The notes under the pieces: model-generated
Told to the model about the DNA's origin: nothing
The model's database searches: none
The model's input: only the letters and a program-made list of their open reading frames with translations
Translations under genes and position numbers: made by a program
Assembly (NCBI GenBank): GCA_000002445.1
Contig: CP000070.1
Coordinates: forward strand, 1,792,001 to 1,856,000
Length of the DNA: 64,000 nucleotides
Reading direction: 5' to 3'
From: Trypanosoma brucei
Taxonomy: Eukaryota
Part shown: piece by piece, positions 27 to 53,479 of the stretch
How positions within the stretch are numbered: position 1 is the first letter of the stretch
Layout of the letters: every line of letters begins with the position of its first letter

Positions 27-638
27 TCAAGGTCTCGGTGATGTTGCATTACCCCCTCCCACGGCGTCTGCCTCGTCGTCCTCATCTAATATTTCCCAAA
101 AGTGTTCTGAAGTACATTTCTCCTTCTCAGCCTTCTCCGCTTCTCTCTCAGCATTCCTACTCAACGTCTCGGCTCTGACGGTATACTCATGTGCATCTAG
201 AAAATTATCTTTCAACCCAAAAACGGCCTTCGTGGTGAGCACCGGTCTCTCGGGTGACTCCCCGCAGAACTTCACAACCTCAGTGAATAACTGACGGACA
301 CGCCTTTCACTATTCGACAGCTGCGGCTCAATGTACTTAATCGCCCTGTAGTACTGGTCCGCCAGCTTCTTTCGCTGTGCATTGACAGCGTCAACCAACT
401 CCTTCTGTTCATTCGACTTCACAATTGCGTCACATCTCTTCTTCACAACTTCAGCCCGCTCGGTGGCACGATCAAACCTGTGCCAAACATTAACTAAACG
501 CATGTTTAAGCGACCATACGAAACTTTCAACCCCAGGCAATACCGCAATCGGCGCGTCGTTGATAGAGCGACGCTCCCCCCCACATTGCACAGAATGGCA
601 ATGAAAAGGCACACGATGATTTTCTTCGCTAGATTCAT
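27..638 (-). CDS. Array member 1 (divergent): secreted protein with signal peptide MNLAKKIIVCLFIAILCNVGG and an ~180-aa Cys domain; HCGFW motif degenerated to FCGESPERPV; short acidic tail
   Basis: ORF 27..644 begins at GTG; the first ATG is at 638 (rc of cat 636-638). N-terminal hydrophobic signal peptide. Shares YC...C...YY(R/N)AIxYIE spacing with the paralogs at 1330, 2724, 4133, 8006 and 11709. TGA stop at 27-29. Confidence 0.75.
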   Translation of the reverse strand: MNLAKKIIVCLFIAILCNVGGSVALSTTRRLRYCLGLKVSYGRLNMRLVNVWHRFDRATERAEVVKKRCDAIVKSNEQKELVDAVNAQRKKLADQYYRAIKYIEPQLSNSERRVRQLFTEVVKFCGESPERPVLTTKAVFGLKDNFLDAHEYTVRAETLSRNAEREAEKAEKEKCTSEHFWEILDEDDEADAVGGGNATSPRP

Positions 639-644
639 TGTCAC

Positions 645-1047
645 ACACTTGTCTCTCCTATGTACCGCATGAAATTAAAAAAGAAAAACAGAATAATATC
701 TTTTGGGCAAGACAATACGAAAAGGGCAATGCAACATATGCAGGAGAGAGACAGTTTCCTCCTTCCCTCAAACAATAGACACACGCCACACTACAGTCTC
801 ACAATCACATTGGTTATTTAAAAGCACTCACAACACTGTAAAAGGGACAAAAAGTCACTTCAAGCAAAGCATTACTTAGCATGCGGTTACGTAGATATTC
901 ATATTGTTGCATGCCCTCCGTCACACGTTGGTACGTTGGAACATGCTAACATCAACCATCCGTCCGTCCACACACACACGCACATACCGCTATTTAAAGC
1001 GGTTTCTATACATCATTCCACTACCCAGATCCCTTATGGAAAAGTTA
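645..1047 (-). repeat. Conserved intergenic cassette copy 1: 3'UTR of the upstream paralog plus polypyrimidine tract/splice-acceptor region and short 5'UTR of the downstream paralog
   Basis: Near-identical to 2047-2420, 3438-3840, 7425-7700 and 11066-11460 (e.g. ...gaaaaacagaataatatcttttgggcaagacaatacg...ccgtcacacgttggtacgttggaacatgctaacatcaaccatccgtccgtccacacacacacgcaca...ccgctatttaaagcggtttctatacatcatt). Confidence 0.85.
661..700 (-). promoter_or_regulatory. Putative polypyrimidine tract and AG trans-splice acceptor region serving gene 27..638; predicted 5'UTR is very short
   Basis: Minus-strand reading gives ...ttctgtttttcttttttaatttcatgcggtacatAGgAGAGacaAGtgtgtgacaATG. The same arrangement sits upstream of the genes starting at 3431 and 11059. 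Kinetoplastid SL trans-splicing is inferred, not shown by the sequence. Confidence 0.45.
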
Positions 1048-1329
1048 GTCCTTCCACTTGATACAACGCACGACGTCTCCTTACGACGCAGTATGTTATG
1101 TACAGAAAATAAAATCAAGTAAAGGTGTAGAAAGAGTGACGAAAAAGTGGCATGGTAAGTTGTTATGTGTCCCGCATCAGTATCATTCGAACAGTCGCTG
1201 CCAATACCGCCAAGGATGTGACCAACATGGCACTCAAAATTCCACCAAGCACTCGCACGAACCAGTGCCACTGCCGTCCCATACGCTCGCGGTGAATTCC
1301 TATCCAGCCTACCCATTACTCGGAACCGA

Positions 1330-2013
1330 TCACTGCGAGGTTACATTTTCACCACCAACAGGCGGGGCAGTGCCTTCGGGCGTTTCGGATGCTGCGCTTC
1401 CATCGTTGGGCTCCCCACCTTCTTTCTCTGGCTTTTTGTCTCCCTCTCCGCCCAATGCGTTCTTCGATTCAGCGGAACTGCATTGTGTCGTTCTGGCTTT
1501 CACTTCGCTTGTCTCCGCTTCCCTTGACAGCACCTCCATCTTTGATACTAAAGATTTGGCCTTCCACAATTTGACTCTCGCTTCACGCTTGAGCTCAGAA
1601 GACACTGGCATGAAAGACGACCAGAAGCCGCAATGCTTTCTTATACCATTAAGCAACTCGCGCACGTCTTTCTTGTACTCAATTACCTGAGTCTCAATAT
1701 ATCTAATGGCATTGTATTGTTCCACTACTAATTTCACTTTATCCGAGTTAGCGTTTTCCGTCCCTTCCCTAGTTTCACTTAGTCTAGCAGCCTTCTCACA
1801 GGATGTCCTCACAACCTTTGCACGATCCCGGCTACCATGAAGGGCCTGAAGCAAGGCTGTGCAGCGGCCACTTATTGAATTAATTGATCTTCTCAGTGAA
1901 TCACAATATCTCTCTCGCACTACCCTCTTGCTGAATGCAATACCACCCTGCACACTACATAGCATAGAAACGACAAGGCACACGGTGGCACCCCGCGCAA
2001 GCCTCATGGCCAT
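1330..2013 (-). CDS. Array member 2: secreted Cys-domain protein with signal peptide MAMRLARGATVCLVVSMLCSVQGG and short Gly/Glu-rich tail
   Basis: ATG start confirmed at 2011-2013 (rc). Contains NSDKVKLVVEQYNAIRYIE and HCGFWSSFMPVSS motifs shared with paralogs. Confidence 0.8.
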   Translation of the reverse strand: MAMRLARGATVCLVVSMLCSVQGGIAFSKRVVRERYCDSLRRSINSISGRCTALLQALHGSRDRAKVVRTSCEKAARLSETREGTENANSDKVKLVVEQYNAIRYIETQVIEYKKDVRELLNGIRKHCGFWSSFMPVSSELKREARVKLWKAKSLVSKMEVLSREAETSEVKARTTQCSSAESKNALGGEGDKKPEKEGGEPNDGSAASETPEGTAPPVGGENVTSQ

Positions 2014-2046
2014 CCTTGAAGACTACTTCCACAAACGAAAGTTATA

Positions 2047-2555
2047 AAAAAAAAAAGAAAAACAGAATAATATCTTTTGGGCAAGACAATACGAAAAGGG
2101 CAATGCAACATATGCAGGAGAGAGACAGTTCCCTCCTTCCCTCAAACAATACACACACGCCACACTACAGTCTCAAAATCACATTGGTTATTTAAAAGCA
2201 CTCACAACACTGTAAAAGGGACAAAAAGTCACTTCAAGCAAAGCATTACTTAGCATGCGATTACGTAGATATTCATATTGTTGCATGCCCTCCGCCACAC
2301 GTTGGTACGTTGGAACATGCTAACATCAACCATCCGTCCGTCCACACACACACGCACACACCGCTATTTAAAGCAGTTTCTATACATCATTTCATTACCC
2401 AAATCCCTTATGGAAAAATAGAACCCGGAGCACGTCGCCGATCTGTTTATATCTTCAATAAAAAGAACAAAAAGTAAAGCATATTAATGTTATAAAGCAA
2501 TAAAGGAAAGCCACAGCACGCAGCTGAATAACTTGTTATCGTCTAAGAGACCATA
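2047..2555 (-). repeat. Conserved intergenic cassette copy 2, with a ~140-bp extension also found at 11461-11600
   Basis: Direct sequence identity to the other cassette copies. Extension ...ccggagcacgtcgccgatctgtt(t/c)atatcttcaataaaaagaacaaaaagtaaagcatattaatgttataaagcaataaaggaaa... is shared with 11461-11600. Confidence 0.85.
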
Positions 2556-2723
2556 ATTCTGCCACCACTGCCCATCGGGCTGAAAGAACAGATGAGTGTA
2601 GCAATACTCTCGGCGGCCACATTAAGAAACAGCCTGTCGCATCCCTTTAGTATTCAGCGTGCCTTACATTCTCCTCAGCAGCGTAGTTAGCATCCACCCC
2701 CATTCCAGTTATCACTTAATGGC

Positions 2724-3431
2724 TCAATTAGCAGATTCTGTGCCCGCATGTTCCTCACGGGTCTCGGACGAGGTAGTGGACGTGGCCCTATCGAGCTCAC
2801 GAGTTCCGACAGTTGGAGTGGTGTCTTGTAGTGAGTCACCGCCACTTTGCGGCTCCGCTTCACTTCTTGTGACTTCCTCCTGCGTATCTGTAGCTGGCGC
2901 GGAGCACCACTCCCCTGAAGCGTGAGAAGCATAAGATTTCGCATTTTCACTGAGTGATTCCACCTTCGATATCAATTCTGAAGCCTCCTCAAGGTGGCGT
3001 TTTGTGATATCACGCAGAAACGAGGATACGGGAGTGAAAGACAACCAGAAGCCGCAGTGCTTTCCCAAACCGATTAATAAATCGTGAATTTTTTTTTCGT
3101 AATCGGATATCTGCCGTTCATTATACATAATAGCGTTGTAGTACTCATTCACTAATTTCATTTTATCCGAGTTAGCAGCATCACTCACTTCCTTCTCTTC
3201 ACTTAACTTAACAAACCTTTCGCAATTTTCTTTAACATTCTCCACCTTATGAAGTGCATCCTCAAAAACATTCCAGGTGTCAGTAAACCGCTTCCCCAAT
3301 TCCTCAACTGTTGCCTTCAACTTTGTACAGTATCCCCCTTTTTTTTCAACCAGAGAAAAACCACGCACGCCCCCCACATTGCACAGAATGGCAATGAAAA
3401 GGCACACGATGATTTTCTTCGCTAGATTCAT
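2724..3431 (-). CDS. Array member 3: secreted Cys-domain protein with signal peptide MNLAKKIIVCLFIAILCNVGGVRGF and Ser/Thr/Glu-rich tail
   Basis: ORF starts at GTG 3437; first ATG at 3431. Motifs NSDKMKLVNEYYNAIMYNE and HCGFWLSFTPVSS. 5' end nucleotide-identical to the members starting at 638 and 11059. Confidence 0.8.
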   Translation of the reverse strand: MNLAKKIIVCLFIAILCNVGGVRGFSLVEKKGGYCTKLKATVEELGKRFTDTWNVFEDALHKVENVKENCERFVKLSEEKEVSDAANSDKMKLVNEYYNAIMYNERQISDYEKKIHDLLIGLGKHCGFWLSFTPVSSFLRDITKRHLEEASELISKVESLSENAKSYASHASGEWCSAPATDTQEEVTRSEAEPQSGGDSLQDTTPTVGTRELDRATSTTSSETREEHAGTESAN

Positions 3432-3437
3432 TGTCAC

Positions 3438-3840
3438 ACACTTGTCTCTCCTATGTACCGCATGAAATTAAAAAAGAAAAACAGAATAATATCTTTTGGG
3501 CAAGACAATACGGAAAGCACATGTACATCCATATGCAGGAGAAAGACAGTTTCCTCCTTCCCTCAAACAATAGACACACGCCACACTACAGTCTCAAAAT
3601 CACGTTGGGTATTTAAAAGCACTCACAACACTGTAAAAGGGACAAAAAGTCACTTCAAGCAAAGCATTACTTAGCATGCGATTACGTAGATATTCATATT
3701 GTTGCATGCCCTCCGTCACACGTTGGTACGTTGGAACATGCTAACATCAACCATCCGTCCGTCCACACACACACGCACACACCGCTATTTAAAGCGGTTT
3801 CTATACATCATTTCATCACCCAATTCCCTTATGGAAAAAT
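3438..3840 (-). repeat. Conserved intergenic cassette copy 3
   Basis: Identity to the other cassette copies. Confidence 0.85.
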
Positions 3841-4132
3841 AGAACGACCACCATGGCACTTTTCCCACAAGCTCATCAGGCCCAAAGGAAGAAAATGAAC
3901 AATCTACATATTGCGTTTAGTATAGTGTAAGTGAAAAATAAAGCAATAAAAACAACACTAGTGAACACCGACACGACCCTTCACCACATAAACAGGACCA
4001 TTACTATTAACACTGTTCTAACAAACTAACCGACCAATAATTGAGCGATAATCACACTATCTACGATAAAACAAAAAAGGTATTCTACCCAACAGCTGCT
4101 GGATCACTATAAACACATCATGCCCAAATCCA
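3841..4132 (-). repeat. 3' flank (putative 3'UTR) of the long-repeat gene, duplicated at 7700-8005
   Basis: ccaccatggcacttttcccacaagctcatcaggcccaaaggaagaaaat(g/a)aacaatcta...ggtattctacccaacagctgctggatca(c/t)tataaacacatcatgcccaaatccattattgcacag is shared by both copies. Confidence 0.8.
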
Positions 4133-7100
4133 TTATTGCACAGACACACCCTCGGCACCTACGGATCCAGCAGTTTCTTTAGGTCCAGCACTTCCCTCAG
4201 ATCCAGCACTTTCTTTGGGTCCAGCAGTTTCTTTGGGTCCAGCAGCTTCTTTAGGTCCAGCATTTCCCTCAGATCCAGCACTTCCCTCAGATCCAGCACT
4301 TTCTTTAGGTCCAGCACTTTCTTTAGGTCCAGCACTTCCCTCAGATCCAGCACCTTCTTTAGGTTCAGCAGTTTCTTTAGGTCCAACACTTTCCTCAGAT
4401 CCAGCACCTTCTTTAGGTCCAGCAGTTTCTTTGGGTCCAGCAGCTTCTTTAGGCCCAGCACTTCCCTCAGATCCAGCACTTTCTTCAGGTCCAGCAGTTT
4501 CTTTAGGTCCAGCACTTCCCTCAGATCCAGCACTTTCTTTAGGTCCAGCAGTTTCTTTAGGTCCAGCACTTTCCTCAGATCCAGCACTTTCTTTGGGTCC
4601 AGCAGTTTCTTTGGGTCCAGCACTTTCTTTAGGTCCAGCAGCTTCTTTAGGTCCAGCACTTCCCTCAGATCCAGCACCTTCTTTAGGTCCAGCAGCTTCT
4701 TTAGGTCCAGCACTTCCCTCAGATCCAGCACTTTCTTTGGGTCCAGCAGTTTCTTTGGGTCCAGCAGCTTCTTTAGGTCCAGCACTTCCCTCAGATCCAG
4801 CACTTTCTTTAGGTCCAGCAGTTTCTTTAGGTCCAGCACTTTCCTCAGATCCAGCACTTTCTTTAGGTCCAGCACTTTCTTTAGGTCCAGCACTTCCCTC
4901 AGATCCAGCACCTTCTTTAGGTTCAGCAGTTTCTTTAGGTCCAACACTTTCCTCAGATCCAGCACCTTCTTTAGGTCCAGCAGTTTCTTTGGGTCCAGCA
5001 GCTTCTTTAGGCCCAGCACTTCCCTCAGATCCAGCACTTTCTTTAGGTCCAGCAGTTTCTTTAGGTCCAGCACTTCCCTCAGATCCAGCACCTTCTTTAG
5101 GTTCAGCAGTTTCTTTAGGTCCAGCACTTCCCTCAGATCCAGCACTTTCTTTGGGTCCAGCACTTTCTTTGGGTCCAGCACTTTCTTTAGGTCCAGCACT
5201 TCCCTCAGATCCAGCACCTTCTTTAGGTTCAGCAGTTTCTTTAGGTCCAGCACTTTCTTTAGGTCCAGCACTTTCCTCAGATCCAGCACTTTCTTTGGGT
5301 CCAGCAGTTTCTTTGGGTCCAGGACTTTCTTTAGGTCCAGCAGTTTTTTTAGGTCCAGCACTTTCTTTAGGTCCAGCACTTCCCTCAGATCCAGCACTTT
5401 CTTTAGGTCCAGCACTTTCTTTAGGTCCAGCAGTTTTTTTAGGTCCAGCACTTTCTTTAGGTCCAGCACTTCCCTCAGATCCAGCACTTTCTTTAGGTCC
5501 AGCAGTTTCTTTAGGTCCAGCACTTTCCTCAGATCCGGCACTTTCTTTAGGTCCAGCAGCTTCTTTAGGTCCAGCACTTCCCTCAGATCCAGCACTTTCT
5601 TTAGGTCCAGCACTTTCTTTAGGTCCAGCAGTTTCTTTGGGTCCAGCAGCTTCTTTAGGTCCAGCACTTCCCTCAGATCCAGCACTTTCTTTAGGTCCAG
5701 CAGTTTCTTTAGGTCCAGCACTTTCCTCAGATCCAGCACTTTCTTTGGGTCCAGCAGTTTCTTTGGGTCCAGCACTTTCTTTAGGTCCAGCAGCTTCTTT
5801 AGGTCCAGCACTTCCCTCAGATCCAGCACCTTCTTTAGGTCCAGCAGCTTCTTTAGGTCCAGCACTTCCCTCAGATCCAGCACTTTCTTTGGGTCCAGCA
5901 GTTTCTTTGGGTCCAGCAGCTTCTTTAGGTCCAGCACTTCCCTCAGATCCAGCACTTTCTTTAGGTCCAGCAGTTTCTTTAGGTCCAGCACTTTCCTCAG
6001 ATCCAGCACTTTCTTTGGGTCCAGCAGTTTCTTTGGGTCCAGCAGTTTCTTTGGGTCCAGCAGTTTCTTTGGGTCCAGCAGCTTCTTTAGGTCCAGCACT
6101 TCCCTCAGATCCAGCACCTTCTTTAGGTCCAGCAGCTTCTTTAGGTCCAGCACTTCCCTCAGATCCAGCACTTTCTTTGGGTCCAGCATTTCCCTCAGAT
6201 CCAGCACTTCCCTCAGATCCAGCATTTCCCTCAGATCCAGCACTTCCCTCAGGTCCAGCACCTTCTTTAGGTCCAGCACTTTCTTTAGGTCCAGCACTTT
6301 CTTTGGGTCCAGCACTTCCCTCAGATCCAGCACTTCCCTCAGATCCAGCACTTTCTTTAGGTCCAGTACTTTCTTTGGGTCCGGCACTTTCTTTAGGTCC
6401 AGCACTTTCTTTAGGTCCAGTACTTTCTTTGGATCCAGCACTTTCTTTAGGTCCAGTACTTTCTTTGGGTCCAGCACTTCCCTCAGATCCAGCACTTCCC
6501 TCAGGTCCAGCACCTTCTTTAGGTCCAGCACTTTCTTTAGGTCCAGCACTTTCTTTAGGTCCAGCACTTCCCTCAGATCCAGCACTTCCCTCAGATCCAG
6601 CACTTTCTTTAGGTCCAGTACTTTCTTTGGGTCCGGCACTTTCTTTAGGTCCAGCACTTTCTTTAGGTCCAGCACTTTCCTCAGATCCAGCACCTTCTTT
6701 AGGGTCGACAAGACCCCCAGGCGTGACGGGGGTACCTTGCGTTTTGGGCGACTCTAAGGAAGTTGGACTGCTATTTTTTGTTTTGTTTGTCCTATTGACC
6801 TCTTTTTCGGTGGACATTTCGTCGGTTTCTGTGCCAGGATCAAGGAAAGTGCATATTCCCTCTTTTAGATTTTCCCCGTAATACCTGGCATCAAAACTAA
6901 GAGCCTCAATTCTTGCCGTAAGAAATTTGACCTGTAACAAATTGGTAGTTGTATACCGGTGTACCTCATCAGATAATAGCGTGAAAGACACCCAAAAGCC
7001 ACATTCTTTTTTAATGTTGCCAACCAATTCGTGTACCTTCTTTTCGTGGTCATCAACCTTGCGTTTTATAAGAAGGATGGCATCATTGTACCCATCCAGT

Positions 7101-7363
7101 ATCTTTATTCGCTCCCATGCAAAAGTACTCCTACCACTGGTGTCAAGTATCCTACAGTTAACAACCTCCTCCCTAACATTTACAAGTGAACGCTTGACGT
7201 CACGTTTTGCCTGCTCCAAACGATTATTAATATCAAATAAAAGACGCTTCATTCTTGCACAATATCTCGCTCTGCTCTCCCATCTATTAAAAAAACTGCT
7301 GGCATCAACAACATATGATGTATGCACCACAAAAAATAGCACAATACACCACAGAACATGCAT
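4133..7363 (-). CDS. Array member 4: secreted Cys-domain protein with signal peptide MHVLWCIVLFFVVHTSYVVDA, fused to ~850 aa of AGPKE[S/T/A]/AGSEGS 6-aa tandem repeats; C-terminus ...GSVGAEGVSVQ
   Basis: ORF 4133..7417 starts at GTG; first ATG at 7363. The N-terminal domain has the family C/ECGFWVSF pattern. The repeat frame is continuous with the N-terminal domain. No C-terminal hydrophobic segment. Confidence 0.8.
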   Translation of the reverse strand: MHVLWCIVLFFVVHTSYVVDASSFFNRWESRARYCARMKRLLFDINNRLEQAKRDVKRSLVNVREEVVNCRILDTSGRSTFAWERIKILDGYNDAILLIKRKVDDHEKKVHELVGNIKKECGFWVSFTLLSDEVHRYTTTNLLQVKFLTARIEALSFDARYYGENLKEGICTFLDPGTETDEMSTEKEVNRTNKTKNSSPTSLESPKTQGTPVTPGGLVDPKEGAGSEESAGPKESAGPKESAGPKESTGPKESAGSEGSAGSEGSAGPKESAGPKESAGPKEGAGPEGSAGSEGSAGPKESTGPKESAGSKESTGPKESAGPKESAGPKESTGPKESAGSEGSAGSEGSAGPKESAGPKESAGPKEGAGPEGSAGSEGNAGSEGSAGSEGNAGPKESAGSEGSAGPKEAAGPKEGAGSEGSAGPKEAAGPKETAGPKETAGPKETAGPKESAGSEESAGPKETAGPKESAGSEGSAGPKEAAGPKETAGPKESAGSEGSAGPKEAAGPKEGAGSEGSAGPKEAAGPKESAGPKETAGPKESAGSEESAGPKETAGPKESAGSEGSAGPKEAAGPKETAGPKESAGPKESAGSEGSAGPKEAAGPKESAGSEESAGPKETAGPKESAGSEGSAGPKESAGPKKTAGPKESAGPKESAGSEGSAGPKESAGPKKTAGPKESPGPKETAGPKESAGSEESAGPKESAGPKETAEPKEGAGSEGSAGPKESAGPKESAGPKESAGSEGSAGPKETAEPKEGAGSEGSAGPKETAGPKESAGSEGSAGPKEAAGPKETAGPKEGAGSEESVGPKETAEPKEGAGSEGSAGPKESAGPKESAGSEESAGPKETAGPKESAGSEGSAGPKEAAGPKETAGPKESAGSEGSAGPKEAAGPKEGAGSEGSAGPKEAAGPKESAGPKETAGPKESAGSEESAGPKETAGPKESAGSEGSAGPKETAGPEESAGSEGSAGPKEAAGPKETAGPKEGAGSEESVGPKETAEPKEGAGSEGSAGPKESAGPKESAGSEGSAGSEGNAGPKEAAGPKETAGPKESAGSEGSAGPKETAGSVGAEGVSVQ
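4160..6715 (-). repeat. Coding tandem repeat array, 18-nt period, ~140 units, two unit types (gctggacc(t/c)aaagaa(a/g)(g/c)t = AGPKE[S/T/A]; gctggatctgagggaagt = AGSEGS)
   Basis: Visible as ggtccagca(c/g)tttctttaggtccagca / cttccctcagatccagca iterations on the + strand. Open in all six frames, which produces the spurious ORFs 4136..6757, 4159..6711 and 4215..6881. Confidence 0.95.
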
Positions 7364-7424
7364 TTTCTTCAACGACAACAACACAAAAACAATAAAAAAA
7401 AACAATAGCACATGCACATGCAGG

Positions 7425-7700
7425 AGAGAGACAGTTCCCTCCTTCCCTCAAACAATAGACACACGCCACACTACAGTCTCAAAATCACGTTCAGCATTTA
7501 ACAGCATACACGACACTGTAAAAGGGACAAAAAGTCACTTCAAGCAAAGCATTACTTAGCATGCGGTTACGTAGATATTCATATTGTTGCATGCCCTCCG
7601 TCACACGTTGGTACGTTGGAACATGCTAACTCCCTTATCTCACGGCCGCTCCTCCCCACCGCTATTTAAAGCGGTCCTAACGTAATCTTATAACTAACCG
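7425..7700 (-). repeat. Conserved intergenic cassette copy 4 (partial/diverged; lacks the 5'-proximal ~60 bp)
   Basis: Shares ...gcaggagagagacagttccctccttccctcaaacaatagacacacgccacactacagtctca... and ...ccgtcacacgttggtacgttggaacatgctaac... with the other copies; the central part is diverged. Confidence 0.75.
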
Positions 7701-8005
7701 GATCCCTTATGGAAAAATAGAACGACCACCATGGCACTTTTCCCACAAGCTCATCAGGCCCAAAGGAAGAAAATAAACAATCTAAATGATATCAATAATA
7801 TAATGTAAAAATAAAGCAATAAAAACAACACTAGTGAACACCGACACGACCCTTCACCACATAAACAGGACCATTACTATTAACAGTGTTCTAACAAACT
7901 AACCGACCAATAATTGAGCGATAATCACACTATCTACGATAAAACAAAAAAGGTATTCTACCCAACAGCTGCTGGATCATTATAAACACATCATGCCCAA
8001 ATCCA
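7700..8005 (-). repeat. Second copy of the long-repeat-gene 3' flank (see 3841-4132)
   Basis: Near-identical to 3841-4132. Confidence 0.8.
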
Positions 8006-11000
8006 TTATTGCACAGACACACCCTCGGCACCTACGGATCCAGCACTTTCTTTAGGTCCAGCAGTTTCTTTGGGTCCAGCACTTTCTTTAGGTCCAGCAC
8101 TTCCCTCAGATCCAGCACTTTCTTTGGGTCCAGCAGTTTCTTTGGGTCCAGCACTTCCCTCAGATCCAGCACTTTCTTTAGGTCCAGCAGTTTCTTTAGG
8201 TCCAGCACTTTCCTCAGATCCGGCACTTTCTTTAGGTCCAGCACTTTCTTTAGGTCCAGCAGTTTCTTTGGGTCCAGCAGTTTCTTTGGGTCCAGCACTT
8301 CCCTCAGATCCAGCAGTTTCTTTGGGTCCAGCACTTCCCTCAGATCCAGCACCTTCTTTAGGTCCAGCATTTCCCTCAGATCCAGCACTTCCCTCAGATC
8401 CAGCACTTTCTTTAGGTCCAGCACTTCCCTCAGATCCGGCACTTTCTTTAGGTCCAGCACTTTCTTTGGGTCCAGCACTTTCTTTAGGTCCAGCATTTCC
8501 CTCAGATCCAGCACTTCCCTCAGATCCAGCACTTTCTTTAGGTCCAGCACTTTCTTTAGGTCCAGCACTTCCCTCAGATCCAGCACCTTCTTTAGGTCCA
8601 GCACTTTCTTTAGGTCCAGCAGCTTCTTTAGGTCCAGCACTTTCTTTAGGTCCAGCAGTTTCTTTAGGTCCAGCACTTTCCTCAGATCCGGCACTTTCTT
8701 TAGGTCCAGCACTTTCTTTGGGTCCGGCACTTTCTTTAGGTCCAGCAGCTTCTTTAGGTCCAGCACTTTCCTCAGATCCGGCACTTTCTTTAGGTCCAGC
8801 ACTTTCCTCAGATCCAGCAGCTTCTTTAGGTCCAGCACTTTCCTCAGATCCAGCAGTTTCTTTAGGTTCAGCACTTTCTTTAGGTCCAGCACTTTCCTCA
8901 GATCCGGCACTTTCTTTAGGTCCAGCACTTTCTTTGGGTCCAGCACTTTCCTCAGATCCAGCAGCTTCTTTAGGTCCAGCACTTTCCTCAGATCCAGCAG
9001 TTTCTTTAGGTCCAGCACTTTCCTCAGATCCAGCAGTTTCTTTAGGTTCAGCACTTTCTTTAGGTCCAGCACTTTCTTTAGGTCCAGCACCTTCTTTAGG
9101 TCCAGCACTTTCTTTAGGTCCAGCACTTTCTTTAGGTCCAGCACCTTCTTTAGGTCCAGCACTTTCCTCAGATCCAGCAGTTTCTTTAGGTTCAGCACTT
9201 TCTTTAGGTCCAGCACTTTCTTTAGGTCCAGCAGCTTCTTTAGGTCCAGCACTTTCTTTAGGTCCAGCACCTTCTTTAGGTCCAGTACTTTCTTTAGGTC
9301 CAGCACTTTCTTTAGGTCCAGCACCTTCTTTAGGTCCAGCACTTTCTTTAGGTCCAGCAGCTTCTTTAGGTCCAGCAGCTTCTTTAGGTCCAGCACTTCC
9401 CTCAGATCCAGCACCTTCTTTAGGTCCAGCATTTCCCTCAGATCCAGCATTTCCCCCAGATCCAGCACTTTCTTTGGGTCCAGCATTTCCCTCAGATCCA
9501 GCATTTCCCCCAGATCCAGCACTTTCTTTGGGTCCAGCACTTTCCTCAGATCCAGCAGCTTCTTTAGGTCCAGCACTTTCTTTAGGTCCAGCACTTTCTT
9601 TAGGTCCAGCAGCTTCTTTAGGTCCAGCAGCTTCTTTAGGTCCAGCACTTCCCTCAGATCCAGCACCTTCTTTAGGTCCAGCATTTCCCTCAGATCCAGC
9701 ATTTCCCCCAGATCCAGCACTTTCTTTGGGTCCAGCATTTCCCTCAGATCCAGCATTTCCCCCAGATCCAGCACTTTCTTTGGGTCCAGCACTTTCTTTA
9801 GGTCCAGCACTTTCTTTAGGTCCAGCACTTTCTTTAGGTCCAGCAGCTTCTTTAGGTCCAGCATTTCCCTCAGATCCAGCAGCTTCTTTAGGTCCAGCAC
9901 TTTCCTCAGATCCAGCACCTTCTTTAGGTTCAGCACTTTCTTTAGGTCCAGCACTTTCTTTAGGTCCAGCAGCTTCTTTAGGTCCAGCATTTCCCTCAGA
10001 TCCAGCATTTCCCCCAGATCCAGCACTTTCCTCAGATCCGGCACTTTCTTTAGGTCCAGCACTTCCCTCAGATCCAGCAGCTTCTTTAGGTCCAGCACTT
10101 TCTTTGGGTCCAGCAGCTTCTTTAGGTCCAGCACTTCCCTCAGATCCAGCAGCTTCTTTAGGTCCAGCATTTCCCTCAGATCCAGCATTTCCCCCAGATC
10201 CAGCACTTTCTTTGGGTCCAGCATTTCCCTCAGATCCAGCAGTTTCTTTAGGTCCGGCAGTTTCTTTGGGTCCAGCACTTTCTTTAGGTCCAGCAGTTTC
10301 TTTAGGTCCAGCACTTTCCTCAGATCCAGCACTTTCTTTAGGTCCAGCAGCTTCTTTAGGTCCAGCACTTTCCTCAGATCCAGCACTTTCTTTGGGTCCA
10401 GCAGCTTCCTTGGTGGTGACCGTTTCTTTTGGCGACTGGGATGTCGCACCACTGCTTTTGGGTTCCTCTTGTTTTTTCTTTGCCTTTTCTTCCTCCTCCC
10501 CCGCCAATACATTCTCTGTCCCCACCAAGACGCATCTGTTTCTTGCGGCGGTATCGCTGTGATTTTTTGCACCAAGACTGAGTTTGTCTATCATTATCGT
10601 TAGGGATCTTGCTTCTAACAGTTTTTCTTTAACAGTTCTTTTGAATGACGATGTGAGTGGCATGAAAGACAACCAGAAGCCGCAGCCGTTCCATATTTCA
10701 CCAGTCAAAGTGTTGATCTTCCTTTCGCAATCACCGATGAGCAGTTCAATTTGCCTAATGGCACTGTAGCTCTCGTCTACTAACTTAAGTTTTTCTGAGT
10801 TGGTGGCGCCAGAAACGTCCTTGGCTTTCTTATGCTTCAAAATACCTTCGCATTCTGCTTTTACGGCTAGCGTGTTATTGAACGCACGGTCGAATACGTT
10901 CCATGACTCTGAAAATCGGTTGTTAACTTTGTTAATAACACTTTTGACCTTTTTACAATGAGCTGCTCTGCTTTCCCGCCTCTCGAAACCACGCACGCCC

Positions 11001-11059
11001 CCCACATTGCACAGAATGGCAATGAAAAGGCACACGATGATTTTCTTCGCTAGATTCAT
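8006..11059 (-). CDS. Array member 5: secreted Cys-domain protein with signal peptide MNLAKKIIVCLFIAILCNVGGVRGF, fused to ~790 aa of AGPKE[S/T/A]/AGSEGS/AGSGGN repeats; same C-terminus as member 4
   Basis: ORF starts at GTG 11065; first ATG at 11059. N-terminal domain carries NSEKLKLVDESYSAIRQIE and CGFWLSFMPLTSS. The last 28 nt of the CDS and the 3' flank are identical to member 4. Confidence 0.8.
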   Translation of the reverse strand: MNLAKKIIVCLFIAILCNVGGVRGFERRESRAAHCKKVKSVINKVNNRFSESWNVFDRAFNNTLAVKAECEGILKHKKAKDVSGATNSEKLKLVDESYSAIRQIELLIGDCERKINTLTGEIWNGCGFWLSFMPLTSSFKRTVKEKLLEARSLTIMIDKLSLGAKNHSDTAARNRCVLVGTENVLAGEEEEKAKKKQEEPKSSGATSQSPKETVTTKEAAGPKESAGSEESAGPKEAAGPKESAGSEESAGPKETAGPKESAGPKETAGPKETAGSEGNAGPKESAGSGGNAGSEGNAGPKEAAGSEGSAGPKEAAGPKESAGPKEAAGSEGSAGPKESAGSEESAGSGGNAGSEGNAGPKEAAGPKESAGPKESAEPKEGAGSEESAGPKEAAGSEGNAGPKEAAGPKESAGPKESAGPKESAGPKESAGSGGNAGSEGNAGPKESAGSGGNAGSEGNAGPKEGAGSEGSAGPKEAAGPKEAAGPKESAGPKESAGPKEAAGSEESAGPKESAGSGGNAGSEGNAGPKESAGSGGNAGSEGNAGPKEGAGSEGSAGPKEAAGPKEAAGPKESAGPKEGAGPKESAGPKESTGPKEGAGPKESAGPKEAAGPKESAGPKESAEPKETAGSEESAGPKEGAGPKESAGPKESAGPKEGAGPKESAGPKESAEPKETAGSEESAGPKETAGSEESAGPKEAAGSEESAGPKESAGPKESAGSEESAGPKESAEPKETAGSEESAGPKEAAGSEESAGPKESAGSEESAGPKEAAGPKESAGPKESAGPKESAGSEESAGPKETAGPKESAGPKEAAGPKESAGPKEGAGSEGSAGPKESAGPKESAGSEGSAGSEGNAGPKESAGPKESAGPKESAGSEGSAGPKESAGSEGSAGSEGNAGPKEGAGSEGSAGPKETAGSEGSAGPKETAGPKETAGPKESAGPKESAGSEESAGPKETAGPKESAGSEGSAGPKETAGPKESAGSEGSAGPKESAGPKETAGPKESAGSVGAEGVSVQ
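8033..10410 (-). repeat. Coding 18-nt tandem repeat array (second copy; different unit order and length from 4160-6715; includes GGN/EES variants)
   Basis: Same ggtccagca.../cttccctcagatccagca units. Spurious alternative-frame ORFs 8009..10603, 8032..10575 and 8070..10562. Confidence 0.95.
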
Positions 11060-11065
11060 TGTCAC

Positions 11066-11600
11066 ACACTTGTCTCTCCTATGTACCGCATGAAATTAAA
11101 AAAGAAAAACAGAATAATATCTTTTGGGCAAGACAATAGGGAAAGCACATGTACATCCATATGCAGGAGAAAGACAGTTTCCTCCTTCCCTCAAACAATA
11201 GACACACGCCACACTACAGTCTCACAATCACGTTGGGTATTTAAAAGCACTCACAACACTGTAAAAGGGACAAAAAGTCACTTCAAGCAAAGCATTACTT
11301 AGCATGCGATTACGTAGATATTCATATTGTTGCATGCCCTCCGTCACACGTTGGTACGTTGGAACATGCTAACATCAACCATCCGTCCGTCCACACACAC
11401 ACGCACACACCGCTATTTAAAGCAGTTTCTATACATCATTCCACTACCCAAATGTCCCATGCTTATCCGGAAGCCGGAGCACGTCGCCGATCTGTTCATA
11501 TCTTCAATAAAAAGAACAAAAAGTAAAGCATATTAATGTTATAAAGCAATAAAGGAAAACCACAGCACGCAGCTGAATAACTTGTTATCATCGAAGCAGC
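11066..11600 (-). repeat. Conserved intergenic cassette copy 5 plus the extension shared with 2420-2555
   Basis: Identity to 3438-3840 (core) and 2420-2555 (extension). Confidence 0.85.
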
Positions 11601-11708
11601 ATCTCAACCTACGTAGCCTTGAGCAAGACGAAGCAACATCTTCCATCGTCGTGTTCCCAATCAAATAAAATCCGTTGACTCCTTCTTACATTCAACTTGT
11701 CTCATGCT

Positions 11709-12515
11709 CTAATCCACCTCTGCCTGGGCCTCCTTCCCTACCGCAGGTTCAGCAACAACAGCAGGTTCCTCGTCGGCGGTTTTTTCCCCAAGACCTTCTT
11801 GGCTGCTATCGGTGTCACCTTTAGCGGTGTCAGTCGACCTCTTTTCTTCTCTCTGCTCATCCATACTTGTGGGTGATTCAGGAGATTCGGGCACGGGGCC
11901 ATCGGATGTTTCCTCGTTCTGTTTGCCGGAAGTGTCTTCACCAGCACCTGCCTCCTTCTCTCTGCGTTTATCCTCCACCGTGGAGCACTCATCATTCGCC
12001 GCATCAGCGGCATAGCTCGCCGCATCTCCACTAAGAGTTTCAATTTTCGACACCTTGCCTGTAGCTTCAGCCGTCGTCTCCTCAATGCTCCGTTTGAATG
12101 AAATGGTTACTGGCATGAAGGACAACCAAAACCCGCATCGGTCCTTTAGATACACCGTTAGTTTGTGTAAATCGCGCTCGTAGTTCCTAATCTCTGTTCC
12201 GACATACATGATCGCGTTGTAGTACTCATCTACAACTCTCTTCTTTCCGCTGTCTGCAACATCTGTTATCTCATCGTCGCTGACTTTCTTCACGTCCTCG
12301 TCGCACTTTCCCTTGACAACACTGGTTCGCTTGAGAGCAACTTCAAACGTGTGCCATGCGTTTGCATAGCGGGTATTAATGGCCCGAACTGATTTGGCCA
12401 CTGTAGTACAGTATTCTGAGCGGCTTATCCTTCCCCAATGAGAAGAGGACTTGCCTCCAATACTGCATAGCCCGGCCACGAGAATATATAGTGTTACGCC
12501 CCTTGCGAAAACCAT
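11709..12515 (-). CDS. Array member 6 (most upstream): secreted Cys-domain protein with signal peptide MVFARGVTLYILVAGLCSIGG and acidic Glu/Asp/Ser-rich tail
   Basis: ORF starts at TTG 12524; first ATG at 12515. Motifs VVDEYYNAIMYVGTE and RCGFWLSFMPVTIS. Has a different 5' flank from the other members (no cassette upstream). Confidence 0.75.
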   Translation of the reverse strand: MVFARGVTLYILVAGLCSIGGKSSSHWGRISRSEYCTTVAKSVRAINTRYANAWHTFEVALKRTSVVKGKCDEDVKKVSDDEITDVADSGKKRVVDEYYNAIMYVGTEIRNYERDLHKLTVYLKDRCGFWLSFMPVTISFKRSIEETTAEATGKVSKIETLSGDAASYAADAANDECSTVEDKRREKEAGAGEDTSGKQNEETSDGPVPESPESPTSMDEQREEKRSTDTAKGDTDSSQEGLGEKTADEEPAVVAEPAVGKEAQAEVD

Positions 12516-16850: not shown

Positions 16851-18332
16851 TTATTTCCCGCCCTCTCCATTCCTCTGTTGCAGTTGATAATTTTTCTTTA
16901 TATCCTTTATCCATTGCAACAGCTCCTTCATACGGTTGAAAAGCGGAGACTTGTACTTCCGCGTAGCATCCGCCGCCAGTTCATTTAGTTTTTGCTTCTG
17001 TAAAGGAACGTTGGCATATGCCTCAACACATTCCTTCATGGCACCCACATACGTAACGGCCACCTCGCCACCCACATCAGCCAATCGAGTTTCCATTGTC
17101 TCAATGTTCTCAATCATTCCGCGCATCTCCTCGAGCATACCATCGAATTGCTCTTTGCAAGAAACTAATGCAGCGTCCACCTCATTCACTGCTGCTGCTG
17201 CTGTTGCTGATGCCGCTGCTTCTGCCGCGTTATCACCTTGTGCCTCCATCTTGGCGCGCTTCAGCTGTAGCTTCAGCATTTGATCCAAAGACTTCTGTAG
17301 CACATCAACGTGCCGTTTGAAGTTGTCAATTACCTCCCGCAGTGCCGCCACAAGAGAATATGTTTCGCCATAGTCCACTTCCTCCTCTTGACTGCAGCCA
17401 GCGCCCTCAACAGCAGCCGCCGAAGGAACGAAATGATCACCATTTGCGTACACCGCCAAACCATCGGGGATGTAACCCCATTTCATTGCGCTGATGGGAA
17501 TTCCTGCAATATCGGCTTCACGACCTGTTGCCGTATCACCCTTCAGTGCACTTTCTACAGTGTTGGTGCGCAAAGTGGCGGGAAGCGGTTGCTCCCCACG
17601 TCTATCACGCTGTTGTGCCTGAGCAACAAAAGCCTTTTCCGACTCGCGCAGGTCGTTCGCCATTTGTATAGCGGCCACAATCTTCGGATCATCAGGTGGA
17701 AGCTCCTCATTCACCTGCGACAGTCGTGTGGGTCTGTAGTTGGTGAAACAAACGTACTGATAGGTAAGGTGTGCAATAGCTGGGCGGAAGGTTGCAATGA
17801 ATAGTGGCCCATCCAACAGTCCTTCCAACATGGTATGATTTTCCATCACAGTTGTGAAGAGTAACTTTCCTCCGTTACGCAAAAGGAGCTTGGCCGTTTG
17901 AATGTACGCTGTCCATACGTCCTCTGTGATGAAAGGCGGATCAGCTACAACGTAGTCGAAGGCACCAAAGTACTGCACGGGGACCTCCTCCGGTCGATGA
18001 AAGTCGTAGAAGACAAAACCGGTGTCGTCCTTCCACTGTTTGTCGTACTCAAAAAGACGACTGTCCCGAACTAGAGCGGACTTTGCATTACTGTCACCTT
18101 TGGAGGCCTCTTCCGTGTTACCGTCCCCACCATTCTTGTCAGCTGCAATCATTGCAAAATACAGCGATGGAGTCGAGAGGAAAGCACATGCAGTTGCATG
18201 ATGACGGACCTCACCTATGAGTGCATCAATGGTGTGGATGGAGTACCAGTATTGGTTAAACTCAGCACGCTCTACGTTGTGGTCAAACCGCACCCCGCTC
18301 TCAGTCACGAAGCATGGAGCCGCTTCCGTCAT
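16851..18332 (-). CDS. EEF1A-KMT1/N6AMT2 (EFM5)-family class I methyltransferase-like N-terminal domain fused to a ~280-aa C-terminal coiled-coil extension
   Basis: QYWYS and VVADPPF (DPPF) motifs typical of the EFM5/N6AMT2 protein-lysine methyltransferases. The ORF track extends to 18506, but the homology-supported start is ATG at 18330-18332 (MTEAAPCFVTESGVRF...). C-terminal part is heptad-like and Ala/Glu/Leu/Lys-rich. Confidence 0.7.
   Translation of the reverse strand: MTEAAPCFVTESGVRFDHNVERAEFNQYWYSIHTIDALIGEVRHHATACAFLSTPSLYFAMIAADKNGGDGNTEEASKGDSNAKSALVRDSRLFEYDKQWKDDTGFVFYDFHRPEEVPVQYFGAFDYVVADPPFITEDVWTAYIQTAKLLLRNGGKLLFTTVMENHTMLEGLLDGPLFIATFRPAIAHLTYQYVCFTNYRPTRLSQVNEELPPDDPKIVAAIQMANDLRESEKAFVAQAQQRDRRGEQPLPATLRTNTVESALKGDTATGREADIAGIPISAMKWGYIPDGLAVYANGDHFVPSAAAVEGAGCSQEEEVDYGETYSLVAALREVIDNFKRHVDVLQKSLDQMLKLQLKRAKMEAQGDNAAEAAASATAAAAVNEVDAALVSCKEQFDGMLEEMRGMIENIETMETRLADVGGEVAVTYVGAMKECVEAYANVPLQKQKLNELAADATRKYKSPLFNRMKELLQWIKDIKKNYQLQQRNGEGGK

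Positions 18333-20421: not shown

Positions 20422-20423
<2 letters not shown>

Positions 20424-20458
<35 letters not shown>
20424..20458. repeat. (TG)n microsatellite
   Basis: tgtgtgtgtg... run. Similar (TG)n/(CA)n runs at ~31192-31212, ~47180-47198, ~50263-50282 and ~62167-62200. Confidence 0.95.
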
Positions 20459-20460
<2 letters not shown>

Positions 20461-20746
20461 CTCTTTTTTTAATTTTTACACGTCATTTTTGTAACACCAC
20501 ATTCTAAAGTAATTTACCTCAATTCAACTCATCAGATGACTGATCGCGTCTATGTGTTCACGCATGTGCCACCTTTTCTTCTTTTCACTCACGCAACACT
20601 AACTGAGTGTTTGCACGTGAATCAGGAGAGGGAACACAAGAAGAAACAGATACAAAGAGAAAGAGAGCCACAGAGGAGAAGGAGAAGCAATTATGTGTTG
20701 TTTCTCCCATAGCCAAGCGCATCGCATTGCCCCACCCCCCCCCCTT

Positions 20747-34950: not shown

Positions 34951-35733
34951 GCCTATGGAAAAAAGCGAAACAAAAAAAAAAGCGGCAACAACAATAACAA
35001 AAATGAAAGCAACCAAAAATGAGTTGCTACTGGCGCTGCGGCCTAAAAGACCCTATTATTTCTTTTCCCGCTTGCTGCTGTTAACGGGGGGTAGTTTCTT
35101 TTTCTTTTTCTCTCCCTCTGGGGGAAAGAGCGGGGATTCTTGACCTTCTCTCCCTCACACTTCTCTTTGCGACCTTTTCTTCCACCAGCGCACTCTGAAG
35201 CCAGTAGGAATTACTGATTGCAACATTGTGTTACGGGAAATGGGGAGACATGTACAAGTGTGTGTGGGTGTTTAAGCACAAAAGGGAAAGAATAGAGAGA
35301 AAACGGGCAGCAGTAGTAACCAGAGCGGTAAACGACAGACGACCAAAAAAAAAAAAACGAACGAACATGGGTATGCAAAAGCATTCAACAAGAGGCTCAC
35401 AGTAAAGAACCCCACCAACATGTTAAGTGCAAAAGCAGGGTTAGGGGGCGTGAAGACACGCTTCCTAACCTTCGCTAAAGAAATAACAGAGAAAAATAAA
35501 CTTCTGTTTTTTTTTTATTTAAAGAAAACAAAGACTAGCGGAAAAGTGTTATTAGACAAACGCTGCGCAGTGTATGAACCATACCCAAGACCACAAAAAC
35601 AAGACGTATCTTCACGTACGTGTATGTGTGCCCGCACCTAGGCATCTGCCCGAGCATCAACGTGTTTGTCATTACACGAAGGTATAGAAGAAAACATATG
35701 TGTACCAGACAAATGACGCATTACTTTTGTCAA

Positions 35734-53112: not shown

Positions 53113-53170
53113 GACAAGCGCGGTCAAACCGTGCACTCTCTGCTTGGCTCTTCCTTCTTGATATTTTTTC

Positions 53171-53198
53171 TTATATATATATATATATATATATATAT
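53171..53198. repeat. (TA)n microsatellite just upstream of the kinase gene
   Basis: tatatatatata run. Other (TA)n runs at ~16090-16116, ~18870-18892, ~23428-23456, ~50186-50210 and ~50372-50392. Confidence 0.95.
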
Positions 53199-53479
53199 CC
53201 TTCCTAAACACGTAATGTAAATATATGCTTACGCGCGCTCAGGTGCGTGAGCCCAACAACTGAACAGATAAATCAAAAGGAAAAAGGAATATCAGTAGTT
53301 ATTACAATCTTTATTATTGTTGTTGTTATTGTTATTATAATTATATGCTGATGGGAACAAAAGAAACACAAAAAGTGAATGATCTGCTGTGGGACAATTC
53401 CTTAATTTAAAGCACTCACACACGAAAGTGGCGGCATCTTTCATTCATATCTCTACTCGATTTTCGAAAACGTTTATGC

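What the first reader, a model, noticed from the sequence alone, without database searches (positions are those of the whole stretch)
27..12515. Tandem array of six paralogous secreted-protein genes forming an unrecognised family
Six head-to-tail genes on the minus strand each encode a cleavable-looking signal peptide followed by a ~180-aa domain with four positionally conserved cysteines. The shared motifs are YC…C…NSDKxKLVxEYYNAIxYxE…HCGFWLSFMPV(S/T)S…C. The tails are then hypervariable: short acidic or Ser/Thr-rich tails in four members, and >2.4-kb repeat arrays in the other two. None has a C-terminal hydrophobic GPI or TM signal, so the products are predicted to be soluble and secreted. 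Pairwise identity in the domain is low outside the motifs, indicating old divergent paralogs maintained in one array. I cannot match the domain to any family I know from sequence alone. It may correspond to a named kinetoplastid surface/secreted family or be undescribed.
Basis: partly seen in the sequence, partly recalled or inferred. Interest (0 to 1): 0.85.

Follow-up and report, generated by a model that had tools for sequence, protein, structure and literature searches.

The report
Known trypanosome Fam10/SGM1 secreted-protein gene array
The six tandem genes are real, but they are the already named Fam10/SGM1 family of Trypanosoma brucei: anchorless secreted proteins made by the fly-transmitted infective stage, one of which has been tested as a vaccine antigen, so the family is not new.

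Summary
Six head-to-tail minus-strand genes (27-12515) each encode a signal peptide, a ~150-aa domain with four conserved cysteines, and a variable tail. Two tails consist of 140 and 131 hexapeptide (GPKESA-type) repeats. None has a hydrophobic C-terminus.

The claim of an "unrecognised family" fails. Four products are letter-for-letter identical to T. b. brucei TREU927 chromosome 7 proteins. Gene 3 is ESP17 (Tb927.7.6570). The family is Fam10 of the 2013 cell-surface phylome, scored there as signal peptide yes, GPI no, no TM helix, with members in T. brucei and T. congolense and none in T. vivax. It was renamed SGM1.1-1.7 in 2020. Published work shows metacyclic-stage expression, SGM1.7 on the metacyclic surface, partial vaccine protection, and the two repeat-bearing members in the flagellar-pocket lumen.

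Function and mode of surface attachment remain unknown. Novelty: already known. Interest: low.

The parts
27..638 (-). Gene 1, 203 aa. Identical to AAZ12716. Inferred to be Tb927.7.6550 / SGM1.2. Signal peptide MNLAKKIIVCLFIAILCNVGG, helical domain lacking the GFW loop motif, 28-aa acidic tail.
   Evidence: Ortholog of T. congolense P0010 at 100% bootstrap.
1330..2013 (-). Gene 2, 227 aa. Identical to AAZ12717. Inferred to be Tb927.7.6560 / SGM1.3.
2724..3431 (-). Gene 3, 235 aa. Identical to AAZ12718, which is ESP17 / Tb927.7.6570 (inferred SGM1.4). Its domain was modelled as a three-helix bundle.
4133..7363 (-). Gene 4, 1076 aa from the ATG at 7363. Inferred to be Tb927.7.6580 / SGM1.5. N-terminal domain plus 140 hexapeptide repeats; ends GSVGAEGVSVQ.
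   Evidence: TrypTag reports it as lumenal in the flagellar pocket.
4166..6703 (-). 18-nt (GPKESA-type) repeat array of gene 4. Net acidic, rich in G/E/A/S/P/K.
8006..11059 (-). Gene 5, 1017 aa. Inferred to be Tb927.7.6590 / SGM1.6. N-terminal domain plus 131 hexapeptide repeats, with the same C-terminal 11 residues as gene 4.
8039..10411 (-). 18-nt repeat array of gene 5.
11709..12515 (-). Gene 6, 268 aa. Identical to AAZ12721. Inferred to be Tb927.7.6600 / SGM1.7. Three-helix bundle plus a 91-aa disordered acidic tail.
577..1043 (-). Homogenised block covering the signal-peptide codons and the ~400 nt upstream of gene 1. It is 96% identical to 3370-3838 (gene 3) and 96.5% identical to 10998-11453 (gene 5). 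The block ends at the predicted cleavage site.
2051..2547 (-). Upstream flank of gene 2. It is 93-97% identical to the upstream flanks of genes 1, 3 and 5, and 86% identical to that of gene 4 (7415-7723).
3525..4165 (-). Intergenic region and 3' end of gene 4. It is 90% identical to 7410-8038, which lies downstream of gene 5.

Best explanation
Window 27-12515 is six of the seven genes of the Fam10 / SGM1 family on T. b. brucei TREU927 chromosome 7 (Tb927.7.6550-6600). The seventh, SGM1.1 (Tb927.7.6490), lies beyond the left edge of the window.

Shown here or published:
- Each gene encodes a cleavable-type signal peptide, a ~150-aa domain, and a low-complexity tail without a TM or GPI signal.
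- The proteins are most abundant in metacyclic forms in the tsetse salivary gland.
- SGM1.7 and ESP17 localise to the cell surface.
- The two repeat-tailed members localise to the flagellar-pocket lumen.

Predicted:
- The domain is an elongated antiparallel three-helix bundle. From helix geometry, it is probably stapled by Cys1-Cys3 at one pole and Cys2-Cys4 at the other.
- The tail is disordered.

Inferred mechanism:
- The proteins are co-translationally secreted, leave through the flagellar pocket, and stay either free in the pocket or peripherally bound to the coat, since they have no anchor of their own.
- They act as anchorless, ligand-binding relatives of the trypanosome three-helix-bundle surface receptors at the moment of transmission. 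The ligand is unknown.
- The divergent paralogs give different binding or antigenic specificities. Gene conversion keeps their 5' flanks and signal peptides uniform, which may help explain their shared metacyclic expression.
For: Identity of the family:
- Products of genes 1, 2, 3 and 6 are exactly AAZ12716, AAZ12717, AAZ12718 and AAZ12721 of TREU927.
- Gene 3 is named ESP17 in public records. ESP17 is Tb927.7.6570 and a Fam10 member.
- SGM1.7 is Tb927.7.6600, and SGM1.5 and SGM1.6 carry the repeats. SGM1.1 is Tb927.7.6490.
- Fam10 in Jackson Table S1: signal peptide yes, GPI no, TM helices 0, 8 T. brucei genes, 6 T. congolense, 0 T. vivax.

No anchor:
- Hydropathy analysis.
- The six T. congolense homologs also lack a hydrophobic C-terminus.
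- The MISP paper states the same for Fam10.

Secretory route: Tb927.7.6580 and 6590 are reported as lumenal flagellar-pocket proteins.

Fold:
- AF2 model of the gene 3 domain: pLDDT 89, pTM 0.81, helices 7-55, 61-101 and 113-149.
- An independent model of mature gene 6 gives the same three helices, and its tail has pLDDT below 50.

Concerted flanks against divergent domains:
- Positions -400 to -101 are 96-98% identical among genes 1, 2, 3 and 5.
- Signal-peptide codons are 98-100% identical in genes 1, 3 and 5.
- Mature-domain DNA is ~62-67% identical.
- Gene 1 pairs with T. congolense P0010 at 100% bootstrap.
- Four T. congolense members likewise share one signal peptide, MGPGSRFALLFLALM…, on domains that are 16-23% identical.
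Against: - No ligand or function is known, so the receptor-like role is inference from fold alone.
- There is no sequence-level link to HpHbR, GARP, MISP or ISG65. Pfam gives nothing and a profile search of PDB sequences returns no trypanosome chain at E<=10.
- The models rest on a six-sequence alignment.
- Two papers list GPI predictions for some members: 0.51-0.91 in Gadelha's table and 'Predicted GPI' in the TUSK paper.
- The assignment of SGM numbers to genes 1, 2, 4 and 5 is inferred from gene order and consecutive accession numbers. It was not read from a database.
Confidence: 0.8

Rival explanations
1. The proteins are GPI-anchored surface proteins whose attachment signal is atypical, which would explain the surface localisation of SGM1.7 and ESP17.
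For: Gadelha's table gives GPI scores of 0.51-0.91 for three members. The TUSK paper lists Tb927.7.6490 and Tb927.7.6600 as 'Predicted GPI'. Surface localisation is published.
Against: No member, in either T. brucei or T. congolense, has a hydrophobic C-terminal stretch. The tails end in acidic or polar residues, for example ...EEEEAGDDE and ...KEAQAEVD. Jackson 2013 scores the family GPI 'n'. The MISP paper states there is no identifiable GPI site. The two long members appear lumenal rather than membrane-bound.
Confidence: 0.07
2. The N-terminal hydrophobic segment is an uncleaved signal anchor, making these type II membrane proteins.
For: Gadelha's table counts one TM helix for Tb927.7.6570 and 6550. 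The only hydrophobic segment in each protein is N-terminal.
Against: The same table gives signal-peptide probability 0.988-0.999 against signal-anchor 0.001-0.006. All six genes have small residues at -3 and -1 after a short h-region of ~11-13 residues. The two long members are lumenal in the pocket.
Confidence: 0.04
3. The helical bundle is a generic or convergent scaffold. The proteins would then be structural or matrix components rather than ligand-binding receptors: highly charged, disordered, mucin- or procyclin-like material of the flagellar-pocket lumen or metacyclic coat.
Against: Among 48,164 chains, the same four trypanosome surface bundles rank first for two independently modelled paralogs. 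The domain, with its four cysteines and the H2-H3 loop, has been conserved since before the T. brucei/T. congolense split, while the tails are not conserved.
Confidence: 0.25
4. This is an undescribed protein family.
For: No Pfam family matches. Public names are mostly 'hypothetical protein'.
Against: The family is named and studied as Fam10, ESP17 and SGM1.1-1.7 in at least five papers.
Confidence: 0.01

Closest known systems
Fam10 / SGM1 (salivary gland metacyclic 1) family of T. brucei, including ESP17
   Same: It is this family. The sequences are exactly those of TREU927. It is the chromosome 7 tandem array, with signal peptide present, no GPI signal and no TM helix. The fifth and sixth members carry the repeats. 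Homologs occur in T. congolense only.
   Different: Nothing differs. The window holds six of the seven SGM1 genes. Jackson counted eight T. brucei members, and I could account for only seven.
MISP / BARP / GARP (Fam50) three-helix-bundle coat proteins of salivary-gland and epimastigote stages
   Different: MISP, BARP and GARP are GPI-anchored and Fam10 is not. MISP paralogs are more than 80% identical, while Fam10 domains are 22-38% identical. No sequence-level similarity was detectable.
Trypanosome three-helix-bundle receptors: HpHbR, factor H receptor, ISG65, C3bBbR
   Different: Those receptors are GPI- or TM-anchored with known ligands. Fam10 has no anchor and no known ligand. The bundle is shorter (~150 aa) and no membrane-distal head was identified.
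ESAG7, the anchorless subunit of the transferrin receptor
   Same: It is a secreted-type trypanosome surface-family protein that lacks its own anchor yet is retained at the surface or pocket. This is a precedent for peripheral retention through a partner.
   Different: ESAG7 has a VSG-like fold and a known GPI-anchored partner, ESAG6. No anchored Fam10 paralog exists in either species.
Procyclins (EP / GPEET repeat proteins)
   Same: They have long, short-period Pro/Glu-containing repeats forming an extended, charged, disordered region. GPEET is a pentapeptide repeat; the repeat here is the hexapeptide GPKE(S/T)A.
   Different: Procyclins are GPI-anchored, have no folded N-terminal bundle, and are procyclic-stage proteins.

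Membership tests
Fam10 / SGM1 (T. brucei) | Sequence identity to the annotated TREU927 members | tested here: met
   Genes 1, 2, 3 and 6 are exact matches to AAZ12716, AAZ12717, AAZ12718 and AAZ12721. Gene 3 carries the name ESP17, and ESP17 is Tb927.7.6570, Fam10.
Fam10 / SGM1 (T. brucei) | Tandem array on chromosome 7 in which the fifth and sixth members carry a repeat region | tested here: met
   The contig lengths of 2.2 Mb correspond to chromosome 7. The gene order and the repeats in genes 4 and 5 match SI Fig. S5 of Vigneron 2020.
Fam10 / SGM1 (T. brucei) | Signal peptide present, no GPI signal, no TM helix (Jackson 2013 Table S1) | tested here: met
   Hydropathy and the (-3,-1) rule; the table itself. 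SignalP and NetGPI were not available.
Fam10 / SGM1 (T. brucei) | Present in T. brucei and T. congolense, absent from T. vivax and elsewhere | tested here: met
   An exhaustive HMM scan of 1.84 billion representative proteins found only T. brucei-group and T. congolense IL3000 members, plus two coiled-coil repeat proteins that are probably spurious.
Fam10 / SGM1 (T. brucei) | Peak expression in metacyclic forms | not testable with these tools
   Taken from the literature only.
Trypanosome three-helix-bundle surface protein class (GARP/BARP/MISP, HpHbR, FHR, ISG65) | Elongated antiparallel three-helix bundle | tested here: met
Trypanosome three-helix-bundle surface protein class (GARP/BARP/MISP, HpHbR, FHR, ISG65) | Detectable sequence homology to a member or to a Pfam model of the class | tested here: not met
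Trypanosome three-helix-bundle surface protein class (GARP/BARP/MISP, HpHbR, FHR, ISG65) | Membrane attachment by GPI anchor or a C-terminal TM helix | tested here: not met
   No hydrophobic C-terminal segment in any T. brucei or T. congolense member.
Trypanosome three-helix-bundle surface protein class (GARP/BARP/MISP, HpHbR, FHR, ISG65) | Binding of a host or vector macromolecule | not testable with these tools
   No ligand is reported for Fam10 in the papers read.

The most novel reading that the evidence does not exclude
Fam10/SGM1 proteins are true, anciently diverged, anchorless offshoots of the trypanosome three-helix-bundle receptor superfamily. Metacyclic forms release them through the flagellar pocket, and they bind host innate-immune or tsetse factors at the bite site either as soluble decoys or as coat-associated proteins. 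The distinct paralog specificities have been preserved since before the T. brucei/T. congolense split, while gene conversion homogenises only their regulatory flanks and signal peptides.
Probability: 0.3. Interest if true: 0.5.

Novelty: already known. Interest (0 to 1): 0.22.

Why it matters
The family is one of the few invariant antigens reported on the mammal-infective metacyclic trypanosome, and it has been tried as a transmission-blocking vaccine with partial effect. It therefore matters, but it has already been found.

This check adds a structural hypothesis that is cheap to test. The predicted fold is that of receptors which bind haptoglobin-haemoglobin, factor H, C3 and factor B. Fam10 could therefore go into the existing ligand screens. 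The lack of any anchor, conserved in two species, also sharpens the open question of how these proteins stay on the cell.

The split between homogenised flanks and anciently divergent domains is a clean example of region-specific concerted evolution. It could be used to find the elements that drive metacyclic-specific expression.

Tried and rejected
- Pfam scan of all six proteins gave only sub-threshold noise: COG3_N, CSF-1, DRE2_N and others, E 0.008-0.6, all below the gathering scores.
- The profile search against PDB sequences gave no meaningful hit. The best was a phage fibre and Borrelia VspA at E 0.3-0.4.
- The first single-sequence homolog search found only two clusters because of the word-index limit. 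The exhaustive profile search was needed.
- Foldseek against the PDB gave no hit at E<=0.001, so on its own it does not establish homology.
- The AlphaFold-database library (afdb50) was unavailable, so I could not test whether other trypanosome families resemble the model.
- pN/pS between TREU927 and T. b. gambiense or T. b. equiperdum orthologs of genes 1-3 rested on only 1-7 differences per gene. Gene 2 had 5-6 nonsynonymous against 1 synonymous, and gene 1 had 0 against 1-3. This is too few to claim selection.
- blastn of a T. congolense Fam10 contig against the array showed no nucleotide similarity.
- The repeat finder on the whole region was swamped by the 18-nt arrays. A masked self-BLAST replaced it.
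- One literature search was uninformative because 'Fam10' matched human FAM10x genes.
- P0013 and P0014 (E 6e-12 and 8e-9) hit the profile in 9-11 short stretches of a coiled-coil repeat. I treated them as compositional matches, not family members.
Full report
OBSERVATION

Six ORFs lie head to tail on the minus strand between 27 and 12515. Taking the first ATG of each, they are:
- 27-638 (203 aa)
- 1330-2013 (227 aa)
- 2724-3431 (235 aa)
- 4133-7363 (1076 aa)
- 8006-11059 (1017 aa)
- 11709-12515 (268 aa)

All six align over about 155 residues. Twelve columns are invariant, including four cysteines and the CG of the CGFW motif. Pairwise domain identity is 22-38%.

Each protein starts with a short hydrophobic segment followed by small residues at -3 and -1. 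After residue 40, no 19-residue window exceeds a Kyte-Doolittle mean of 1.0. The last 20 residues are hydrophilic, with means of -0.15 to -1.34.

Four tails are short and acidic or Ser/Thr-rich. Genes 4 and 5 carry 140 and 131 copies of an 18-nt unit. The encoded hexapeptides are GPKESA, GSEGSA, GPKETA, GPKEAA and similar. Both genes end in the same 11 residues, GSVGAEGVSVQ.

WHAT IT IS

A homolog search with gene 3 returned a 99% match named 'Enriched in surface-labeled proteome protein 17' from T. brucei. The products of genes 1, 2, 3 and 6 are identical, residue for residue, to AAZ12716, AAZ12717, AAZ12718 and AAZ12721 of T. b. brucei TREU927 chromosome 7. The window is therefore from that chromosome.

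The literature then places the family:
- ESP17 is Tb927.7.6570 and belongs to Fam10 of the cell-surface phylome (Gadelha 2015, PMC4587319).
- Jackson 2013 Table S1 lists Fam10 with example Tb927.7.6600, signal peptide yes, GPI no, TM helices 0, 8 T. brucei genes, 6 T. congolense and 0 T. vivax (PMC3605285).
- Vigneron 2020 renamed the seven genes sgm1.1-1.7 in chromosomal order and noted a repeat region in SGM1.5 and SGM1.6.
- Vigneron 2020 also found peak expression in metacyclic cells, localised SGM1.7 (Tb927.7.6600) to the metacyclic surface, and obtained reduced early parasitaemia after vaccination (PMC7007551).
- SGM1.1 is Tb927.7.6490.
- TrypTag reports Tb927.7.6580 and 6590 as apparently lumenal flagellar-pocket proteins (PMC9981465).
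- The MISP paper states that Fam10 proteins lack a TM domain or GPI site and that their mode of membrane association is undetermined (PMC10089363).

From gene order, consecutive accession numbers and the position of the repeats, I infer that genes 1-6 are Tb927.7.6550-6600, that is SGM1.2-1.7. This mapping is an inference for genes 1, 2, 4 and 5.

Downstream of gene 1, in two sister genomes, lie a retroelement-type ORF and a VSG gene. So the array ends there, and SGM1.1 sits further away, outside the window.

INDEPENDENT CHECK OF THE FAMILY'S EXTENT

I scored a profile of the six domains against 1.84 billion representative proteins. It found only the T. brucei members, six T. congolense IL3000 proteins annotated 'Putative cell surface-expressed gene family', and two coiled-coil repeat proteins that I regard as compositional matches. 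This reproduces Jackson's species distribution. None of the T. congolense proteins has a hydrophobic C-terminus. The absence of an anchor is therefore conserved in both species and is not an annotation accident.

STRUCTURE (PREDICTED)

- AlphaFold2 on the gene 3 domain, using the six-paralog alignment, gave pLDDT 89 and pTM 0.81. The model has three long helices at 7-55, 61-101 and 113-149.
- A separate run on mature gene 6 gave the same three helices. Its 77 C-terminal residues have pLDDT below 50.

In an up-down-up bundle with these helix lengths, Cys1 (start of H1) lies next to Cys3 (end of H2). Cys2 (nine residues before the end of H1) lies next to Cys4 (three residues after H3). I therefore infer Cys1-Cys3 and Cys2-Cys4 disulfides. 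I could not measure distances in the model.

Across the 13 T. brucei and T. congolense sequences, the most conserved segment is the H2-H3 loop, C-G-F-W-x-S-F-x-P. Together with the N-terminus it forms one pole of the bundle.

Several caveats apply:
- Foldseek gives no E<=0.001, and its best TM scores are 0.59-0.63 to GARP and the factor H receptor.
- There is no sequence-level link to those families.
- The alignment behind the models is shallow.
- In the open literature I could search, I found no statement that Fam10 adopts this fold.
- AlphaFold models of TREU927 proteins are public, so this is at most a small addition.

EVOLUTION OF THE ARRAY

A masked self-comparison shows strong similarity in the flanks:
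- The ~400 nt upstream of genes 1, 2, 3 and 5 are 93-98% identical to each other.
- They are 86-89% identical to the region upstream of gene 4.
- In genes 1, 3 and 5 the identity runs through the signal-peptide codons (98-100%) and stops at the predicted cleavage site.
- Mature-domain DNA is only ~62-67% identical.
- The intergenic regions downstream of genes 4 and 5 are 90-96% identical.

Despite this, gene 1 groups with T. congolense P0010 at 100% bootstrap. The two share the loss of the GFW loop and a C-terminal CxSEHFWE(I/V)LD motif. At least this paralog split therefore predates the T. brucei/T. congolense divergence.

Near-allelic identity of non-coding flanks between such old paralogs is best explained by recent gene conversion confined to the flanks and the signal peptide. 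The mature domains are kept distinct. T. congolense shows the same pattern at protein level: four members share the signal peptide MGPGSRFALLFLALM… on domains that are 16-23% identical.

Ortholog comparisons among T. brucei subspecies have too few differences to test for selection.

HOW IT MOST LIKELY WORKS

Shown or published:
- The proteins enter the secretory pathway.
- They lack a TM or GPI signal.
- They are most abundant in metacyclics.
- They are seen in the pocket lumen (SGM1.5, SGM1.6) or on the cell surface (SGM1.7, ESP17).

Predicted: a folded three-helix bundle followed by a disordered charged tail.

Inferred:
- The proteins are released through the flagellar pocket.
- They then stay free or adhere peripherally to the coat, possibly through an anchored partner, as ESAG7 does with ESAG6.
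- The bundle binds a host or vector ligand. Other bundles of this shape bind haptoglobin-haemoglobin, factor H, C3 and factor B.

The main rival is that the bundle is only a scaffold and the proteins are charged matrix or coat material. I give that about 0.25. A cryptic GPI anchor (0.07) and a signal anchor (0.04) are unlikely on the sequence evidence.

VERDICT

The family is already named, catalogued and partly characterised, so the finding is not novel. What remains open is the ligand, the mode of surface retention and the role of the repeats. These gaps are already acknowledged in the literature.

Noticed in passing
L002:1-6530 (T. b. gambiense DAL972 chr 7), corresponding to window 4133-11059: The genes called over the two repeat-bearing Fam10 members lie on the antisense strand, and the product is an LGPALS-type repeat. 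The exact sense products of window genes 4 and 5 are absent from the 15-billion-protein collection, and the profile search returned no long member. All six frames of the 18-nt arrays are open. Public gene models for SGM1.5 and SGM1.6 may be on the wrong strand or otherwise differ.
   Followed up: partly
L004:1-1583 (T. congolense IL3000 contig CAEQ01001252): Directly upstream of the T. congolense ortholog of gene 1 (P0010) is an ORF of PVEPEK-type hexapeptide repeats that stays open to the contig start. It may be the tail of a repeat-bearing Fam10 member cut off by the draft assembly, paralleling the GPKESA tails in T. brucei.
   Followed up: partly
window 577-1043, 2051-2547, 3358-3845, 7410-7723, 10986-11596: A ~400-500-nt upstream block is 86-98% identical between paralogs whose coding domains are ~30% identical. 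In genes 1, 3 and 5 the block includes the signal-peptide codons and stops at the cleavage site. It is a candidate gene-conversion tract and shared regulatory element.
   Followed up: yes
window 12516-64000: Every ORF over 250 aa is on the minus strand, which is consistent with one polycistronic unit. Pfam hits are an N6-adenine-methyltransferase-like protein (16851-18506), an RMC1_C protein (31741-35016), a DnaJ protein (35734-36507) and a protein kinase (50413-53211). A 3030-aa ORF (37565-46657) and a 1630-aa ORF (25377-30269) have no Pfam match.
   Followed up: partly
L001:13681-14766 and 19653-20612; L002:19637-20612 (beyond the window's left edge): Downstream of gene 1 in T. b. equiperdum there is an Exo_endo_phos_2 (retroelement-type) ORF. 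In both T. b. equiperdum and T. b. gambiense there is a VSG gene on the opposite strand. The Fam10 array therefore abuts VSG/retroelement sequence that separates it from SGM1.1.
   Followed up: no
window 990-1316 (-) and L002:9323-9649: A 108-aa ORF between genes 1 and 2 is called as a gene in the T. b. gambiense record. It has no family match and is probably a spurious call in the intergenic region.
   Followed up: no
window 47000-50000 and 58000-60000: Two markedly AT-rich stretches (GC 0.30-0.33, against ~0.48 for the window as a whole) lie in intergenic parts of the polycistron.
   Followed up: no
Literature, Fam10 member count: Jackson 2013 counts 8 T. brucei Fam10 genes. Gadelha 2015 and the Vigneron 2020 supplement count 7, and the Vigneron main text says 6. 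I could identify only 7 distinct T. brucei proteins.
   Followed up: no
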